Below, in pieces: positions 12,762 through 24,921 of a DNA stretch of 64,000 nt. The position numbers and the translations under genes are program-made. Location of the stretch: positions 6,758,001 through 6,822,000 of the forward strand of contig CP075496.1 of NCBI GenBank assembly GCA_021613535.1. Reading direction: 5' to 3'. The DNA is from Adineta vaga. Its lineage: Eukaryota > Animalia > Rotifera. The notes beneath the pieces were generated by a model. That model was not told the origin of the DNA, did not search any database, and saw only the letters and a program-made list of their open reading frames with translations. Positions within the stretch are counted from its first letter, which is position 1, and every line of letters begins with the position of its first letter.

Positions 12762-14047
12762 ATGGAAGAACAAAAACTACCAATTGGTATTGATTCTGAA
12801 ATCGCACATGTTCAATCAGAAATCGATCGAGTTGATGCAATATTCACTGTTCCTACTGGACCCATGGGTCATCAAGAAATAAATTATCATATTATTGATG
12901 AAGAACGAAAACAATCTATTCCTCGTACATCATTAACAATCAAATCTTCGCAAGTAAAGGTGCACACAGCTAATACTGATGACTCTGAAATACTGAATAA
13001 ATCTTCAGATAATCATAGTAAATCAACTTCTTATAGTTAGTCGTCGGAAATATTTTTTTAGTATTAAATCACGTGGCACATCATCAAACATCTGATGATA
13101 ATGATAGAAAAGCTCGATTTTTATTACCTGAAATTGATAGTACGAAACAGTCAGAGAACAAATATCCAACGAAAAAAAGTAAAATAACTTTTACAAAGAA
13201 AGAATTTCTATTCTTCTGAATTCTAGTGTATATCTCATTAAAACAAACACAAAAGGAACAGGTATATTGACTTCAGACTATTTTACATGTAAATTTATAT
13301 CACAAATCTCTCTAGATGAAAAGTAACAAAATAATACATATGCCAAGAAATGAAAGTGAGCAAACATCTTCTCGTTCATCCTGGAATGAAGGGACATTTA
13401 CCATTCCGGAACGTTGTCGTCCTAATATGAACAATATATTACAACAGCAAACTGAAATATTAGTACCTTTTTATACACTCAATGACTTAGCTCAACATAA
13501 TCATTCAACAGATGCATGGATTTGCATATTCGATCGTATATACGATGTTACATCACTTATACAAAAAGTTCAAGGAACTAAATTATATCAACAATTGATT
13601 AGTTATGCCGGTCAAGATATAAGTTTATGGTTCGATGAAATTACACACGAACCACGTAGACGAATCCACCATCAAACATATGAATCGGTTTCAATCATTG
13701 AGAATTTATCTTTACTGCAAGCCGAAGAATTTTTCATTGCTCGCCTATCAACATCTCCTCGCTATATTCGTTTAATACACAGTTTCACTCTTCATCATCC
13801 ATATATAATGGAAGTTGCTGAAGAAGAAACGATCGGACAAATTGCAATCAAATTTCTCAAGTATAATACACATATATTTTCATATATATGGCGATACAAT
13901 GGTCAAATACTTGATTATAATAAAACTCTTACTGAAAATGGTATACCAAATGAAGAATCATTTCATGATAGATATGGTTGGCGATCGGACAATGAAAACT
14001 GTCCAACAATTATTCTTTGCTTTTCTGATGATTTAACGATTGCTTAA
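12762..14047 (+). CDS. CYB5D1: Cytochrome b5 domain-containing protein 1-like (axonemal) with an N-terminal extension; exons about 12762-13017, 13062-13178, 13227-13261, 13316-14047
   Basis: b5 fold (YTLNDLAQHNHSTDAWICIFDRIYDVT...YAGQDISLWFD) plus the family C-terminus (EEETIGQI...YNTHIFSYIWRY...LDYNKTLTENGI...FSDDLT). The upstream exons splice in frame. Confidence 0.85.
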
Positions 14048-16424: not shown

Positions 16425-17558
16425 TCAATAATAAAAGATTCCAAATGCAGCTACAGCACAAAAAAGACTTTCATTTAAATAGACATATTCAGCCATGCCA
16501 TCAGTGTCCGAATCCCATAAACATCGACAACCATATTTCACACCTTGACCTTTATTTTCGCCAATAATACATTGAACAATAAATTTGTATCGATCAAATT
16601 TCATATTAGCTGCTTTAAGACGATCACGAATGTTAATTGTAACTATTGTTAAAAGAAAAAGAATAGATTCAGCTATAGTTTCAAAATGAGCAAATTTGAT
16701 CTGAAGAATAATCGTTCAACGAATATAAATAAGCATTATATTCTATAGCATATGAACAATAACTCAAGTTGTTCTTCACTTTTTATCTTAAATTACTCGT
16801 TCATTGTGACTGATACGAAGTAGAATTCGATGCATGTAATGATTTGAAGAATTAACAATTGAATTTTTATTTCAACCTCAATTCTAGAAAATGGCAATAA
16901 GAAATTTTATCATTGTGTTCTCAATTCATGGCTATGTCTATAGATATTTCAAATTGTTATAGTTGTTCTGAAAATCAATACGATATTTTATCATATCAAA
17001 TTGAACTTTAATAGTCTCATCTATTAATGTTTCTATATCACGAATGATTTTGTCATGGTGTCTATACACATATCGACTATTAATGGGTTTTTATGTAATA
17101 TATACGGCTGACACTTCTAAAGCATCGATCAATATGAATCTAATCTGATGTATGTCTGACAAAGATTTTGTTTAGAAAAGACATGTATGAAAACGATACG
17201 AATTTTAATACGAACTTGATTCGAGATGTTTAAATGCGTCTTACTCGATCACTATAGAAATATTCACTACGTTCGATGTAAATTATTACTTGGAAATGAT
17301 GAATGATTAGTTCTGGTTTCGATTGATTTTATTAAACTATATTCTATGGATAATTTCTTTTTCATGCGTTAAATACATACTAGCTTTAGTCCATTCTGCA
17401 CATGCTTCTTGTTCGAATTTTTTATCACCAAGAATATCACTAATACATGAATAGAGAATTTCTTGTACTTTCGTTGAACGAAATTTTTCTTCAAAATTTG
17501 GTCGTGTTATATAACCGGTCGTATCATTCGATTTAGTTGCTAGTGTTGCAGTAGCCAT
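16425..17558 (-). CDS. TCTEX1D2: Tctex1 domain dynein light chain (TCTEX1D2/DYNLT2B-like), exons 17558-17381 and 16642-16425
   Basis: YITRPNFEEKFRSTKV...IRDRLK...FDRYKFIVQCIIGENKGQGVKYGCRCLWDSDTDGMAEYVYLNESLFCAVAAFGIFYY. Confidence 0.93.
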
Positions 17559-17742
17559 TGAATTACCTCTAATTTATCTGAAAAAATAAAATAAGTCGTA
17601 TTTATATATAAATAAATATTAAAAAAATAGGAATTTTTTCAAAAATCAATACAACATTTTCAAAGATCATCATCACTACTGAGATTAAGAAAAAAAATAA
17701 ATAAAAGCATTGTTCTTTGTTGTTTTTGTATTCTTCTTTATA

Positions 17743-18693
17743 TTAATCATGTTGTTGATCAGCATATAAACATTTATCACTACCAGCTCGAGCTCGTTTA
17801 AGTTCACGATGAAAACTAATTGCTGATTTAAGTTCTTGTTCAAATTTAAATTTTTCCATTGATGGATGATTTTCTTTCAAAATAAATTTTTTACCACTAC
17901 CATATCGATATTTTGGTGGTGGTTGAGAAGCAAGTTGTGTCGAGTTTTGAGTAGATGACTGACGATTCTGCTCGACTGAAAACGATGTAGATTTACGAAT
18001 CGATGAAGTATGCGTAGTTTGAGTTCGTTCAGCAGTATCTAAATAATGAAGAAGATTGAAATAAGAATTGTATGATACGTTTTTGAAGTCTGATATACCT
18101 GACGACATTGGTGGATGTCGTTGTTGACTTTTAAGACTTAACATTCGTAATAATTTATCATCATTATCAGCTGTTATCAGTGCCATTCGAAAACGTGATT
18201 GATTTTGAAAAAGTTCTCTTCGATTAGCTTCAAAAAATTTTCTTAAATGATTTTCTCCCAATTGTGATGGACCAGGAATCGTAATCGGATAGTTACATGC
18301 TGCTTGTTCAGTATGTCGTGTTTGTGCACTTGCACGACGTGCAACTTTAGCTTTAACATTTGAATTATGATGATGATAATTTCTCCATATATTATAATTG
18401 ATTGGTGGTTTACCATCGAGACTTTTTGCGTATGTGGATTTATGTGAATATTTACCAGCTTCAAGCCACAAGGCATAATCAAGACTAGAAGAACTAACTG
18501 GTCGAGCTGTTGGTGTTGAACGTTCATCGAATGATTCTCTTAATGTATGAAATAATTCATGGTCAAGTGATGTTTTTGGATGTTCTAATGAAGTTAAACG
18601 TTCGGTTACATGTGGTTTAAATGAAACTGGATTTGTGTGTTCATCAATAATTAAACTTAGAGATGTTGACTCACGACCTCGTGCACTTTTCAT
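17743..18693 (-). CDS. TEX52: Testis-expressed protein 52-like; probable in-frame 60-nt intron at 18098-18039
   Basis: Blocks YALWLEAG..YNIWR, PITIPGPSQLGENHLRKF and LSLKSQQRHPPM resemble recalled TEX52 motifs (FHTWLDV..SNVWR, HPIPPPSWMGQNSFLTF, LKLRSEARAPPL). Confidence 0.7.
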   Translation of the reverse strand: MKSARGRESTSLSLIIDEHTNPVSFKPHVTERLTSLEHPKTSLDHELFHTLRESFDERSTPTARPVSSSSLDYALWLEAGKYSHKSTYAKSLDGKPPINYNIWRNYHHHNSNVKAKVARRASAQTRHTEQAACNYPITIPGPSQLGENHLRKFFEANRRELFQNQSRFRMALITADNDDKLLRMLSLKSQQRHPPMSSGISDFKNVSYNSYFNLLHYLDTAERTQTTHTSSIRKSTSFSVEQNRQSSTQNSTQLASQPPPKYRYGSGKKFILKENHPSMEKFKFEQELKSAISFHRELKRARAGSDKCLYADQQHD

Positions 18694-18731
18694 CTGAAAG
18701 AAAAAGCAAAATAAATGATGTTTATGTTTTT

Positions 18732-19664
18732 TTATTTGAAAAAAATCGTCATTTCAAATTGATCAATACGAAAACCCTCTCGATGATAAAATTTATGTGC
18801 TCGTCCTCGTTGACAACCACTATCTAATGCTATTCGATTTAAATTTAATTTTTCTGCTTCTTTCTTCATTGTATTAACCAATGCTCGACCAACACCCAAA
18901 CTTCGTTTGTTTTCATCCGTAATTAAATCATCACAATAGATAAATTTTGAATATTTCATATGTTGTGATAGACGATAAATGGCTAAACCAAGAACATTTC
19001 TTTTCTCATCATTACTTATTGCCACTAGCATATGAGCAGGACCTGTTTCACATATATTACGAATTTGACTAGCATATATTTTTTGATCCGAAGAAAGATT
19101 TGGTCGTAGTTGTCGAAAAACATCTTGTGCTTGAATTAAAATATCTTCATTCTTTGATAAATCACTTATATCAAGAACTTTAATTTGATCATTATCTTCA
19201 TTATAATGAATCTTATCAAGATAAAATCCAAATGAACTCATTTCGAGACCATGTCGAAAAAAGAATCGATGAGCATCCGTATTTGTTAAATCACATTGTA
19301 AAACAAGCGACGGTGCACCACATTCTTTTGCTTGATGAATTAAATCTTGAAATAAACGTGTACCTAAACCATGATTACGTTCTTTTTCATCAACAATTAA
19401 ATCATAAAGTTCAAAACGAATTCCATCGAATGTTGTCGGATGTGCACGATAAAATGCTAATGCTAAAACAATTGTTTCTGATTGATTTTGTCGTATAATA
19501 CCACAGATACGAGATTGTTTTGTTTGACATAATTTTTGCATATGATCTGCATAATCTTCTAATGTTAATTGTTTTAAATTCGGACGAAGTTGTTGATGAA
19601 CAGTTAAACATGATGGTAATCGAAATATAGTCTCATCAAATGGAATAATTCTTTCCTGAGACAT
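18732..19664 (-). CDS. Intronless tandem (two-domain) GNAT N-acetyltransferase, bacterial-like
   Basis: Two repeats each contain QLRPNL and an acetyl-CoA motif A (DLIVDEKERNHGLG; DDLITDENKRSLGVG), followed by DAHRFF and LDSGCQRGRAHKFY respectively. Confidence 0.93.
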   Translation of the reverse strand: MSQERIIPFDETIFRLPSCLTVHQQLRPNLKQLTLEDYADHMQKLCQTKQSRICGIIRQNQSETIVLALAFYRAHPTTFDGIRFELYDLIVDEKERNHGLGTRLFQDLIHQAKECGAPSLVLQCDLTNTDAHRFFFRHGLEMSSFGFYLDKIHYNEDNDQIKVLDISDLSKNEDILIQAQDVFRQLRPNLSSDQKIYASQIRNICETGPAHMLVAISNDEKRNVLGLAIYRLSQHMKYSKFIYCDDLITDENKRSLGVGRALVNTMKKEAEKLNLNRIALDSGCQRGRAHKFYHREGFRIDQFEMTIFFK

Positions 19665-19686
19665 TTTTAGAAACGTTAAATTGAAT

Positions 19687-19700
19687 GGAAACCTAGCAAC
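19687..19700 (-). promoter_or_regulatory. Candidate RFX X-box (half-site GTTGCTAGG)
   Basis: Minus strand gttgctaggtttcc, about 23 nt upstream of the GNAT ATG. It has one good half-site and one weak half-site. Confidence 0.35.
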
Positions 19701-20770
19701 TGTTACGATTTCTATGGTATAGTATGTTATCTTGATCTTTATCGAATGAAATTTTAATTATTCTTTTTTTCACGACATCTATCTGAAGAAAGAAAGCAAA
19801 TAACATTCGAAGTTCTTCCAATCGAATCATGAAGAAAAAGTTTTGATTATAGTAAAATCTATGGCATGGTAGATATTTATCAATCTATTTCTATTTTCTT
19901 CTGAAAATTTTAAATGACAAGAAATGTCTATGAAAGATCAACTATCTTGACTAAAGAATAAACAAGCATTGTATCAGTTGATTATAATGATATGATGGAA
20001 ATTAATTTGCTATTCTCTTTCTGTTTTACATATAAATCTGATGATCCAAACTACGTCATGTTTCTGAGATGCATATCTAATTCACTTAAATATCTTTGAA
20101 GAATCATACCTACTCAACATTTGTTGTTTTGTTCGATTGATGATAAAACTATGTGAAATGTAAATCTATGTTCAATTGAATGACAAATTATACGAGTTGA
20201 GTATCGAACTTTGTACTGCTGATGACAACATGGAGTTGTATTTCTTCTGAAACTCAATTGAACAATATTTGAGTAGATAATTTTGACAAGAATTCAAGCA
20301 TAAAAGATGATATTGAAAATGAAAACTAAATATAAGTAGTCATCATACTATAATACTATGTGCGCGAACATCTGATCAATCATCTGTTTGATTTACCATG
20401 ATACTGACTTATTAACTATTCATTATGTTTCTCTTCGTATAAAGACTGATACTTACATCTAGTTGAACACTTGAATAGAATCTAAATCAACAAGTTCATA
20501 CTTATTCAGGTGAGAAAGTAAGGCGCGAAAAATTTCAGTAGTAACTAACTTTCACGTTTCCAAATCAACAAAATTATTTCATTCATTCGAATATGTCGTT
20601 TTTTCGACATTGTCTATGAGAATAGAAAATTCATCATTAATCATAAATTTAACACTGTGTATTATGAAGATTTCTTTGAATAAAACTTACTGAAATTTAA
20701 CATTATCTTCATGTTTTCAACAACTACAAAAAGTTAATCTAGTTCTTTTCTTCACTTAAATCTGTATTCT

Positions 20771-22466: not shown

Positions 22467-24921
22467 TTATTTAATATGCTTCTTTTTTTCTTCATTCAAA
22501 CAAGCTAAAAGAAATCCATGGCGTTGATTTCGATCGGCATGTCCATGTAGAATTGAAAGAGATAGAATGTCGATACAAACAGTTAAACTATTACGTGCAT
22601 TTTCTGTCTTTTTTATCTGCTCAGATGTTGGCCATGATTTTTGTAGAAGTAAAAGAAAACGAAAAAATAAATTTCGTTCTTTAGTTTTCAATAATTCAAT
22701 AATCATACTAACAGCTTTACTCATATCGTGATGTTGTGAAGATGCTGTCTCACTAGGTATATGAGATTGGATACCTGTACCACTTGGTAAATGATAAGAA
22801 CGAAAACTAGAAGAATTATTTGTTAAAAATATTCGATCTTGAATATCACGTGATATTATTGGTTCAGGTAAAGATTGCAACAGATGTAAAAGTATCATAA
22901 ATAATGCTATTGTTGGAGTTTGATGAAAATTATAATTATGTTCATAGATTTGATTACGTATTGGAATTAAATCAATTGTATCTTGTACTTCATTACTAAA
23001 TATATTTAATAGATGAATATCATGACGTTCTTTTAAACATTCAATAAGAGATATATAAAGTGCTGGAGGATCATTTTTCATTTCTAGAATATGTTCGGAA
23101 TTAGTTGAATGATTCAATGAATAAATATATTGTTTTGTTTCTTTGTCATATAGTGTTGTAGGAAATTGATCAAATGATAACCCGAAGGGACCCATGTCAA
23201 GTGTCATATCTAATGTAATAAATGTATCTGCACCATTTTCTACATGTAGAATAAGAATTTCATTTAATTGTTTTCCAAATAACCATGAATAACGACTTTT
23301 CATTTGAAAAGTTATATTAATATGTTGTTCTTTACCATTATCGATTGTATGTGATGAACTTGGTGTAAATGTTAAACAATCAAAAAATGGTTCATCAGTT
23401 AATTGTTTCGTATTGATAGGACGTGTTGGTTCAAACATTGCCGATGGACAAATTGTACAGTGACATGAACATTCACCGATATTTTTTATTAATAATGAAT
23501 AGGTCATTTTATCTAAATATCTTACATTCTCAAAGACGATAGCTGGTGGTCGTGGAAAGACTTCAATTGTGGGTATAGAATCATTTTCTTCACGATCTAT
23601 TTCACGTATTAATTGATCACGTAAACGATTCAAACGTTTTTCATCACATTCATATTTAATACCAACACGATAGAGACCACTAACAGGACGATGATCACTA
23701 AATCGAATTGTTTTAGCACATGAATAATGAATTGGATGAATTAATTCGTTTTTTGTTTCATTATTAGACTGAGTTTTTGTTCGTTTAGTGAAATATAATA
23801 TACGATCTGTCCAAGATGGCGTACGAAATTTTTCACTAGTATCATAAACATCACTATTTGGATCGAACTTATATGTTGGCATGAAATCAATCGGTGGTTC
23901 AAAATAATCAGTAAAAACATGCTTTAATTTCATTTCACAACGTAATTGATCTTTTTCATGCAATGGAATAGTAGATAATTCTCTTAATGCTTCTCGAACT
24001 TGTTCATTTGTTTGAGATATACGATAGTTCATATCACCAAACCAAAAAACAACATCATGATCATTAATTTTCCACCTAAAAGAAATTTCATTAATTTAAG
24101 ACAAAAATCTTCAAGATCCACTGACCATTGAGTAGGAGTTGATGATGTTTGAGGATTGAGTGCTGAACTACCAACTGTAGTTGGTGCATACCATATATAA
24201 TCTTTCAATGAATAAGTAGGTCCATCAGTAAATGTCATACGTGATTCTATAGTTTGATAATCTTCATTACGTCGATTGGTTTGTCCATCACCCGATGCAA
24301 AATGACAATTAATAAAACATATGTCTGTTTCATAAAAACGAAATCGAATGCCAACACCACCTTTATTGCCAGCCAAGCCCATAAAACCAGTAGGAACCGA
24401 TGTTCGAGAAATTGATGTACATTTTGTCATATGCGGTGAACGTACATACACAAATAGAATGATTCCTGAAAATAAGTATTTTGCTTTTTGAAAGAAGGAC
24501 AAGAAGAAAAAACATGTTTTTATTGATTACCCATTAATCGAATACGATTGAGTAGTTGAAATTTATGATTTTCATCTTTTGCTTTATAACATGCTTTAAT
24601 AGTTTTCCGTACAATATGTTCCCATTCATCTTCTTTTTTTCTATCATCATATATATATGCTCCACCACTAGTATCGATTTCTTGAAAACCAACAGCAATA
24701 ATATCTGGAAGAATTTCTTGTGTATTTTCTTCATTTTTTGTTACGCGATATAACCATTCTTCAAGTAACGTATGTCCCGGTGGTTGTCGATTATTAACAT
24801 TAAATGTTCCGACAAGAATATGAAATGATTTATAAATCATATATTCATTTTCATGATCTTTTAAACGTTTTTCCAGACGTTTAGTTGCTTCATATAATCT
24901 TGTATCGGTTAATTTTGACAT
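22467..24921 (-). CDS. Inositol polyphosphate 5-phosphatase, INPP5B/OCRL-like (5-phosphatase, ASH and degenerate RhoGAP domains), 3 exons
   Basis: GTFNVN, GFQEID, GNKGGVGIRF, FWFGDMNYRI and PTYKFD...PSWTDRIL in the phosphatase domain. ASH motif EILILHVENGADTFI and RhoGAP-like LLQSLPEPII follow. Confidence 0.93.

What the first reader, a model, noticed from the sequence alone, without database searches (positions are those of the whole stretch)
18732..19664. Intronless bacterial-type double-GNAT acetyltransferase: horizontal transfer candidate with an internal duplication
Seen: a 310-aa ORF with no introns among intron-rich genes, made of two diverged GNAT copies (QLRPNL occurs twice). Knowledge: the pattern QLRP.L...YxDDLxTDE..RS.G.G..L......LDSGxQR..AH.FY recalls a small single-domain bacterial GNAT family rather than animal NATs, and bdelloids are known for abundant horizontal transfer. 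Inference: a foreign gene was acquired, adapted to host AT content and carried as a fused pseudo-dimer. Domain 1 has lost the LDSG and catalytic-type FY (it reads LQCD...HRFF), so it may be a non-catalytic or altered-specificity half. Possible roles are antibiotic, toxin or amine acetylation.
Basis: partly seen in the sequence, partly recalled or inferred. Interest (0 to 1): 0.78.

Follow-up and report, generated by a model that had tools for sequence, protein, structure and literature searches.

The report
Borrowed two-part acetyltransferase in bdelloid rotifers
A rotifer gene encodes two joined copies of an acetyl-transferring enzyme whose closest named non-rotifer relatives are microbial; it is shared across bdelloid rotifers, was likely taken up from microbes long ago, and is predicted to build one working active site from parts of both halves, likely acting on a small amino acid.

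Summary
The ORF is real: 310 aa on the minus strand, two GNAT halves 28% identical. It is unspliced in RNA-like contigs, linked to a spliced neighbour, and has host codon usage. Orthologues occur in Adineta, Rotaria and Didymodactylos, so this is an ancient foreign gene, not a recent arrival.

(1) The halves lost complementary parts. The C half keeps the Tyr/Ser-Gly-Arg set (Y293 in 61 of 61; the N half never has Tyr there). The N half keeps T78 and F147. The single-domain relative is predicted to be a strand-swapped dimer, so the fusion likely forms one composite site.
(2) The nearest named bacterial relatives are betaproteobacterial single-domain genes lying between an aminotransferase and homoserine dehydrogenase (27 of 29 best loci). 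This points to an amino-acid acceptor rather than an antibiotic.
(3) Unnamed, eukaryote-like tandem proteins outscore bacteria and group half-for-half with the rotifer halves, so fusion may pre-date entry. Duplication inside bdelloids is not rejected (p-AU 0.13–0.20).

No substrate was tested. Bdelloid gene transfer and tandem GNATs are both known kinds; this family appears uncharacterised.

The parts
18732..19664 (-). Tandem GNAT ORF, 310 aa (P0001), one coding exon
   Evidence: unspliced contigs
19209..19664 (-). N-terminal GNAT half (aa 1-152): acetyl-CoA motif RNHGLG kept, Tyr replaced by F135, LDSG replaced by LQCD; likely non-catalytic, structural and acceptor-site half
18735..19193 (-). 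C-terminal GNAT half (aa 158-310): YCDDL, RSLGVG, LDSG-QR, AHKFY all kept; likely catalytic half
19431..19433 (-). T78, hairpin residue near-invariant in single-domain relatives, kept in N halves and lost in C halves
   Evidence: (57 of 61 T, 3 S)
19224..19226 (-). F147 on the last strand of the N half; its equivalent (F148 of P0098) is predicted to pack on the partner's L123/D124/S125/Y136
   Evidence: (61 of 61)
19260..19262 (-). F135, position of the general-acid-type Tyr in the N half (F 47, L 14, Y 0 of 61)
18786..18788 (-). Y293, general-acid-type Tyr of the C half (61 of 61)
19575..19592 (-). First QLRPNL (aa 25-30)
19095..19112 (-). Second QLRPNL (aa 185-190); synonymous codons differ from the first copy
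19665..19714 (-). Likely 5' untranslated region; RNA-like contigs end at 19703-19714 (a DNA contig also breaks at 19705, so the start is not fixed)
18694..18731 (-). 38-base spacer after the stop: an AATAAA overlaps the stop codon, then a pyrimidine tract and CAG directly before the next gene's ATG (18693)
   Evidence: crossed by X11 contig 18099-18807

Best explanation
This is an expressed, bdelloid-wide two-domain GNAT gene, likely of foreign origin, that is predicted to fold as a covalent copy of a strand-swapped homodimer and likely works as an acetyl-CoA-dependent N-acetyltransferase with one composite active site, most likely acetylating a small amino acid or amine. Mechanism: the C half binds acetyl-CoA (motif A, R254-G259) and supplies D245/D246, S282-G283, R286 and Y293. 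The N half donates its last strand (F145/F147) into the C half's sheet and its T78 hairpin to the acceptor pocket. Its own site has lost the Tyr and Ser-Gly-Arg set and is likely silent, although it may still bind CoA. History: a single-domain gene of a subfamily that in Betaproteobacteria sits in the aminotransferase-hom-thrC cluster was duplicated and fused, more likely before than after entry into the bdelloid ancestor, then duplicated again into two paralogues and adapted to host codon use. Shown: the ORF, domains, linkage, family range among named hits, complementary conservation, bacterial gene order. Predicted: fold and strand swap. Inferred: foreign origin, silent N site, composite site, substrate class, order of events. 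Odds: foreign and ancient 0.9; one composite site 0.65; amino-acid or small-amine acceptor 0.5; fusion before entry 0.55-0.6.
For: Range: of 66 hits, every hit with a species name is a bdelloid (Adineta ricciae 79%, A. steineri, A. vaga, Rotaria spp.); Didymodactylos carnosus is added. Of 5,717 profile hits, the best 150 were listed; the named ones among the 30 proteins looked up are bdelloid, a glaucophyte and a bacterium. All 16 prokaryote-genome loci are single stretches. Fold: AF2 pLDDT 92.1. Best structural matches are tandem GNATs (3tt2 Z 19.6, rmsd 4.6, 281 aligned; MshD Z 17.0, rmsd 5.9, 264 aligned). Several single-domain chains (Ard1, RimI) align about 145 residues over model range 1-310, while known strand-swapped ones (GNA1, AAC(6')-Iy) align only about 2-152; I read this as a swapped last strand. 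Homodimer of the single-domain relative P0098: score 0.91, best of 3 controls 0.02; the mark was reached by 20 of 30 solved pairs and 1 of 23 solved single chains; runs agree in at least 98% of contacts, pLDDT at least 93. F148 touches the partner's 122-125 and 136, and residues 76-81 lie in the interface. Complementary retention in three tandem lineages (fraction N/C): T78 column 0.88/0.20, 0.71/0, 1.0/0; Tyr column 0/1.0, 0/0.89, 0/1.0; Ser 0/1.0, 0/0.78, 0/1.0. Precedent in passages of PMC4964394: GNA1's acceptor site lies at a strand-swapped interface, and MshD's non-catalytic N domain forms part of the substrate site. Context: 29 of 29 loci (best 30 of 95 matches, one already held) have an aminotransferase upstream and 27 of 29 have hom directly downstream, the other two ending at a contig edge.
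Against: No enzyme assay; no close solved or characterised relative (best PDB E about 3e-10 by profile, at most 23% identity by Foldseek). The homodimer pass may be memory of solved swapped GNAT dimers and was run on a bacterial stand-in with my own alignment. I could not read contacts from the model of P0001 itself. A Tyr at this position is not always a general acid (AAC(6')-Ii passage), so F135 does not prove silence. The operon link comes from one bacterial order, so the loci share descent; the more distant part of the family lacks it (1 of the 71 lower-scoring loci has hom). A rotifer need not use the bacterial substrate. Timing is unresolved: duplication inside bdelloids is not rejected (p-AU 0.198; 0.128), a strict single duplication is rejected (p-AU 0.014), and fast N halves may attract each other. 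Absence from other animals rests on word-limited and unnamed hit lists; P0066, the closest non-bdelloid protein, has no taxon.
Confidence: 0.55

Rival explanations
1. Single-domain bacterial gene taken up directly by the bdelloid ancestor and duplicated and fused there; other tandem forms arose independently and converged on the same asymmetry.
For: Not rejected by AU tests (p 0.198; p 0.128). Independent tandem fusions did occur elsewhere in the family (P0087, P0088, P0116 each pair their own halves). The best BLAST hits of the N half alone are single-domain proteins.
Against: Free trees place bdelloid N halves with N halves of two unnamed tandem groups (96/85 starred; SH-aLRT 92). Quartet mapping favours N-with-N in 54%, 58% and 94% of quartets versus 36%, 40% and 6% for own-half pairing (62%, 37% and 15% unresolved). 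'Every lineage duplicated independently' is marginally rejected (p-AU 0.0496). The best full-length non-bdelloid hits are collinear tandem proteins (P0066 35%, P0077 30%).
Confidence: 0.35
2. Both halves are active with different acceptors; the N half has a changed rather than dead site.
For: The N half keeps motif A (R96 61 of 61, G99 60 of 61, G101 57 of 61), D88 (60 of 61), C124 (60 of 61), N128 (57 of 61) and overall conservation close to the C half. It is the best-scoring stretch for Pfam PF00583 and for the PhnO and AAC(3)-I models. P0066 and P0077 keep Tyr in both halves.
Against: The Tyr present in 110 of 112 single-domain relatives is absent from all 61 bdelloid N halves, and Ser-Gly and Arg are lost too. 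The C half has lost T78, which a second composite site would need from its partner.
Confidence: 0.2
3. A detoxifying enzyme for microbial antibiotics or toxins (aminoglycoside, streptothricin or phosphonate type).
For: The top PDB and NCBIfam sequence hits include AAC(3)-XI, AAC(3)-I, Sat and PhnO. PhnO acetylates aminoalkylphosphonates (PMC3463581, start of abstract only).
Against: All scores are far below the curated cut-offs (52.5 vs 200; 47.4 vs 142; 40.4 vs 300). The nearest bacterial relatives sit in a housekeeping amino-acid cluster. The main text of the bdelloid pathogen-defence paper PMC11258130 has no occurrence of 'acetyltransferase' or 'GNAT' (its supplements were not seen).
Confidence: 0.2
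4. Not a transfer into bdelloids: an old eukaryotic gene, inherited vertically and lost from most animals; or contamination.
For: Relatives exist in a glaucophyte (P0078) and in eukaryote-like unnamed proteins, and their taxa are mostly unknown.
Against: No named non-bdelloid animal appears among the hits. The domains nest inside a bacterial subfamily (99; 93/95). Contamination is excluded by linkage, host codon use and orthologues in several bdelloid assemblies.
Confidence: 0.08

Closest known systems
MshD (mycothiol synthase) and other tandem GNATs (clavulanic-acid tandem GNAT 2wpw, MAB_4324, 3tt2)
   Same: Two GNAT folds in one chain (Z 17-19.6); in MshD the N domain is non-catalytic but shapes the substrate site (PMC4964394 passage).
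   Different: 10-13% identity; the MshD model scores 17.4 bits vs cut-off 163; separate origin. It works like these but is not a member.
Strand-swapped small-amine N-acetyltransferases: GNA1, Hpa2, SSAT1/thialysine acetyltransferase, AAC(6')-Iy
   Same: Sequence-profile hits and the predicted swap of the last strand.
   Different: These are non-covalent homodimers with two equal sites; matches are remote (E 1e-5 to 1e-8).
PhnO aminoalkylphosphonate N-acetyltransferase (NF007530)
   Same: Most frequent NCBIfam match of the single-domain family (38 of 40 members).
   Different: Far below the cut-off (42-47 bits vs 142 for P0098 and P0001); neighbours are aminotransferase-hom-thrC in the loci examined.
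Uncharacterised betaproteobacterial single-domain GNAT between an alanine-type aminotransferase and hom/thrC
   Same: Same conserved set (H, QLRP, Y, R, T, DDL, motif A, LxSG, R, AH, FY, F); 43-44% identity to the C half; same subfamily in trees.
   Different: Single domain, about 146 aa, GC3 about 0.8, found in 94 of 401 genomes of one order; no function known to me or found in the searches.
Ancient horizontally acquired genes of bdelloid rotifers
   Same: Foreign, expressed, shared by Adineta and Rotaria; PMC4632278 passages report many ancient foreign genes, 40.7% with bacterial and 28.7% with protist best hits.
   Different: This family was not found described in the searches run; it may be listed anonymously in supplementary tables I could not see.

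Membership tests
GNAT superfamily | PF00583 above gathering score | tested here: met
   86.4 bits vs 20.7, two stretches
GNAT superfamily | Acetyl-CoA-binding motif A (R/Q-x-x-G-x-G) | tested here: met
   Both halves; R96/G99/G101 and R254/G257/G259 conserved in 57-61 of 61
GNAT superfamily | Acetyl transfer from acetyl-CoA | not testable with these tools
   Needs an assay
Tandem GNAT with one silent half (works like MshD) | Two GNAT folds packed as a pseudo-dimer | tested here: met
   AF2 pLDDT 92, pTM 0.86; the top five VIA rows are tandem GNATs
Tandem GNAT with one silent half (works like MshD) | N half non-catalytic but contributing to the site | tested here: inconclusive
   Complementary conservation and the homodimer model of a relative fit; not shown
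MshD (TIGR03448) | Score above curated cut-off | tested here: not met
   17.4 vs 163.1
PhnO (NF007530) | Score above curated cut-off | tested here: not met
   47.4 vs 142
AAC(3)-I / AAC(3)-XI / Sat resistance enzymes | Score above curated cut-off | tested here: not met
   52.5 vs 200; 40.4 vs 300; 29.5 vs 380
Bdelloid horizontally acquired gene | Closest non-bdelloid relatives are non-animal | tested here: met
   Named relatives are bacteria and a glaucophyte; the nearest tandem hits are unnamed, so the donor is open
Bdelloid horizontally acquired gene | Physical linkage to host genes | tested here: met
   DNA contig X2 18300-19705; X11 contig into the spliced neighbour; record contig 15.2 Mb; neighbours include CDC48, OCRL-like, kinase and Cyt-b5 domains
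Bdelloid horizontally acquired gene | Expression | tested here: met
   Contigs in 6 runs of 3 studies; the runs are guessed or unlabelled, but four of them show spliced joints at neighbours
Bdelloid horizontally acquired gene | Absence from other animals (alien index against nr) | tested here: inconclusive
Betaproteobacterial hom-linked GNAT subfamily | Nesting in the same clade | tested here: met
   SH-aLRT 99 (quick tree, outgroup not one clade); 93/95 (careful tree)
Betaproteobacterial hom-linked GNAT subfamily | Same substrate | not testable with these tools
   Neither substrate is known

The most novel reading that the evidence does not exclude
An undescribed amino-acid N-acetyltransferase of the betaproteobacterial threonine pathway passed into microbial eukaryotes, fused there into a one-site pseudo-dimer, and was handed eukaryote-to-animal to the bdelloid ancestor. 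It now gives these animals a way to acetylate homoserine- or threonine-type amino acids, and sits in a tightly packed, trans-spliced, operon-like gene run of a kind not reported for rotifers.
Probability: 0.15. Interest if true: 0.75.

Novelty: new member of a known kind. Interest (0 to 1): 0.45.

Why it matters
It is a clean case of a foreign enzyme retained, twice over, across a whole animal class, so it should do something useful for the rotifer. The complementary loss of residues between the two halves gives a precise, mutation-testable picture of how a homodimer becomes a one-site fusion. The bacterial gene order exposes a common, unexplained gene in the threonine cluster of Betaproteobacteria, so one assay would serve both questions. 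If the tandem relatives are protists, it is a two-step bacteria-to-protist-to-animal transfer that best-hit screens would label simply 'bacterial'. Against this, bdelloids carry many ancient foreign genes and tandem GNATs are well known, so the overall kind is not new.

Tried and rejected
No whole genome was held, so copy number and synteny in the host were not tested. A word-index search with the alignment of non-bdelloid tandem proteins returned only 2 of its own members from 7,993 candidates. The metagenome scan found DNA for only one tandem lineage (L021, L022; 2 of 80 loci kept from 85), so the taxa of the tandem relatives remain unknown. Viral contigs: 43 pattern matches, none a relative. 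Wider genome samples gave few close relatives (4 of 400 in the class at E<=1e-25; 1 of 401 in the phylum with P0106 at E<=1e-30), so the operon link could not be tested outside one order. ESM Atlas gave only generic GNAT clusters and nothing for the downstream ORF. Fold and PDB searches gave no close characterised relative. No run is on record as RNA, and only contigs were available, so starts, ends, strand and any spliced leader could not be seen. The careful 96-row tree did not finish (quick tree used) and one tree-test script timed out (rerun with shorter searches and a simpler model). Trees left out most bdelloid rows (12, 8 and 6 of 61 used) and gappy rows. One supplement file of PMC10809525 (7,229 characters) had no entry for the gene number I inferred for the named paralogue; larger tables were not held. 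Earlier findings of the scan: none. Intronlessness as evidence of transfer was rejected, because host exons here are as long.

Full report
Observation. The stretch 18732-19664 reads on the minus strand as a 310-aa protein with two GNAT halves (Pfam 86.4 bits, two stretches; halves 28% identical, E=2e-13). The repeated QLRPNL (aa 25 and 185) is more than chance: 37 of 20,000 shuffles repeat any 6-mer. AlphaFold2 gives two complete GNAT folds, mean pLDDT 92.1.

It is a real host gene. Contigs from six spliced or RNA-guessed runs of three studies cover 18786 to 19703-19714 in one piece, while neighbours show spliced joints. No run is on record as RNA, so expression rests on those joints. A DNA contig joins the gene to the first exon of its spliced neighbour. 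GC3 is 0.106 against 0.132 for six host stretches and 0.79 for six bacterial relatives, and codon usage correlates 0.90 with the host. Neighbours carry CDC48, OCRL-like, kinase and cytochrome-b5 domains. Host exons in the window are as long as this gene, so the lack of introns says little.

It is old. Among 66 hits, all those with a species name are bdelloids: Adineta ricciae (79%), A. steineri, A. vaga and several Rotaria. Didymodactylos carnosus has it too. A. steineri has two copies that fall in different clades (P0005, P0050). Two loose contig ends in runs of the window's organism, read by hand, match the second-clade protein P0036 of A. vaga. So the window is likely from A. vaga or a close relative, and it holds both paralogues. 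Acquisition pre-dates these genera (inference).

Where it comes from. A profile search of 1.84 billion representatives gave 5,717 hits, of which 150 were listed. Most listed hits are single-domain proteins of about 145 aa. All 16 prokaryote-genome loci are single stretches, and the rotifer domains nest within one subfamily of them. But about fifteen non-bdelloid tandem proteins rank above the single-domain ones. They carry no taxon. Signs that they are eukaryotic: long Ser/Ala/Pro-rich inserts; a Rab GTPase in the same reading frame as P0094 (Rab8, E=5e-34); and a pyrimidine tract with AG just before the start codon of L021. A glaucophyte has a relative (P0078; its two copies are identical and may be a gene-model artefact). 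This is suggestive, not proof.

Did fusion precede entry? In free trees the bdelloid N halves group with the N halves of two unnamed tandem groups, not with bdelloid C halves (96/85; 92). Quartet mapping favours N-with-N in 54%, 58% and 94% of quartets for the three groups. The formal tests are weaker. Duplication within bdelloids is not rejected (p-AU 0.198; 0.128). All-independent duplication is barely rejected (0.0496). One strict duplication for all is rejected too (0.014), so the history likely includes conversion or replacement of halves. All tandem halves as one clade is not rejected (0.54). With fewer than 150 columns and fast N halves, I put fusion-before-entry at 0.55-0.6.

How it likely works. 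Across 61 full-length bdelloid proteins, Y293 is invariant, and its N-half position is F or L and never Y, against Y in 110 of 112 single-domain relatives. Yet the N half is nearly as conserved (0.70 vs 0.74) and keeps motif A. Losses are complementary in three tandem lineages: Ser, Gly, Arg and Tyr stay in C halves; the near-invariant hairpin Thr (T78) stays in N halves; the last-strand Phe (F147) is kept in every N half but in 0.80, 0.33 and 0 of C halves. In the structure search, several single-domain chains align across model residues 1-310 while known strand-swapped ones align to one half only, which I read as exchange of the last strands. The single-domain relative P0098 is predicted to be a homodimer: score 0.91, best control 0.02; mark reached by 20 of 30 solved pairs and 1 of 23 single chains; at least 98% contact agreement; pLDDT at least 93. 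There F148 touches the partner's L123, D124, S125 and Y136, and the hairpin lies in the interface. The pass may reflect likeness to solved swapped GNAT dimers. Together these fit a fusion that kept one of the two composite sites: C-half catalytic residues with N-half hairpin and strand. GNA1 and MshD are precedents (PMC4964394, passages). The same review notes a case where the Tyr is not the general acid.

Likely acceptor. Of 28 distinct loci scoring at least 128 bits against one family member, 27 lie beside an aminotransferase, hom or thrC, and 25 have hom; of the other 71 loci, 1 has hom (genes identified). In an order-wide search 94 of 401 genomes matched (the tally includes the unpublished G696). 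All 29 newly fetched best loci have the aminotransferase upstream, and 27 have hom directly downstream, often abutting. In the Ferrovaceae-type loci the gene lies after thrC instead. P0098 is 99% identical to the gene in L101. These loci share descent, so this is one strong lead rather than many. It agrees with the remote solved relatives, which are mostly small-amine or amino-acid acetyltransferases. Resistance-enzyme and PhnO models score far below their cut-offs. I commit to an amino-acid or small-amine N-acetyltransferase at about 0.5; homoserine or threonine specifically at about 0.25.

Local arrangement. Only 38 bases separate the stop from the next gene's ATG, which is directly preceded by a strong splice acceptor; an AATAAA overlaps the stop. 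The next gene down shows the same pattern, and contigs from two studies end at 17579, at that acceptor. One contig crosses the spacer. This could be trans-splicing in an operon-like run, or overlapping untranslated regions; contigs cannot tell. A passage in PMC7986045 says rotifers trans-splice but that operons had not been reported.

What is known. Searches listed no paper on this family by title or start of abstract. Term look-ups in PMC12220480, PMC11258130, PMC4632278 and PMC5169069 (passages only) showed no mention of it. PMC12460157 was read as passages for operon criteria, and PMC3463581 only as a search listing. Genome-wide transfer tables in supplements that I could not see may list the gene. 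Names such as Tctex-like for the 17558 gene are recalled, not from a call.

Verdict. A real, ancient, domesticated foreign tandem GNAT: a new, uncharacterised member of two known kinds, with a testable one-site mechanism and a concrete substrate lead. Interest 0.45.

Noticed in passing
window 17381-18731 (- strand): Operon-like packing: GNAT stop, 38 nt, acceptor-ATG (18693) of an ORF with no Pfam or Atlas match (spliced at 18039-18098); its stop at 17743, next acceptor at 17578, ATG at 17558. Possible trans-splice sites.
   Followed up: partly
window 19783 (- strand): A third strong acceptor-like site 119 nt upstream of the GNAT ATG; not covered by the RNA-like contigs, role unknown.
   Followed up: partly
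L023-L043, L101-L129, L001-L006, L010: An uncharacterised GNAT gene is a fixed part of the aminotransferase-hom-thrC cluster in many Betaproteobacteria, often abutting the hom start; one paper search for this link listed only an unrelated paper.
   Followed up: partly
P0094 (unnamed record): A Rab8-like GTPase in the same reading frame as a tandem GNAT; a true fusion or a gene-calling join of two eukaryotic genes.
   Followed up: partly
window 18772-18815: 44 bases shared almost exactly (one difference) with the paralogue's contig although the proteins are only 56% identical; conserved motif or local gene conversion.
   Followed up: no
P0066, P0077 (unnamed records): The closest non-bdelloid tandem proteins keep Tyr in both halves and share a GPAH motif with the bdelloid C half; they may resemble the state before the halves specialised.
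   Followed up: partly
P0002 and P0067: An A. ricciae copy and a related fragment have changed the C-half QLRP and SG-QR motifs, hinting at a diverging copy.
   Followed up: no
window 13316-14047 (+) and 22467-24032 (-): A cytochrome-b5-domain gene in one 243-codon ORF and a 521-codon OCRL-like exon: long exons are normal here.
   Followed up: yes
P0087, P0088, P0116, P0121: Independent tandem duplications in the more distant part of the same family (one in a Phycisphaerae bacterium); in P0116 the C half is the diverged one.
   Followed up: partly
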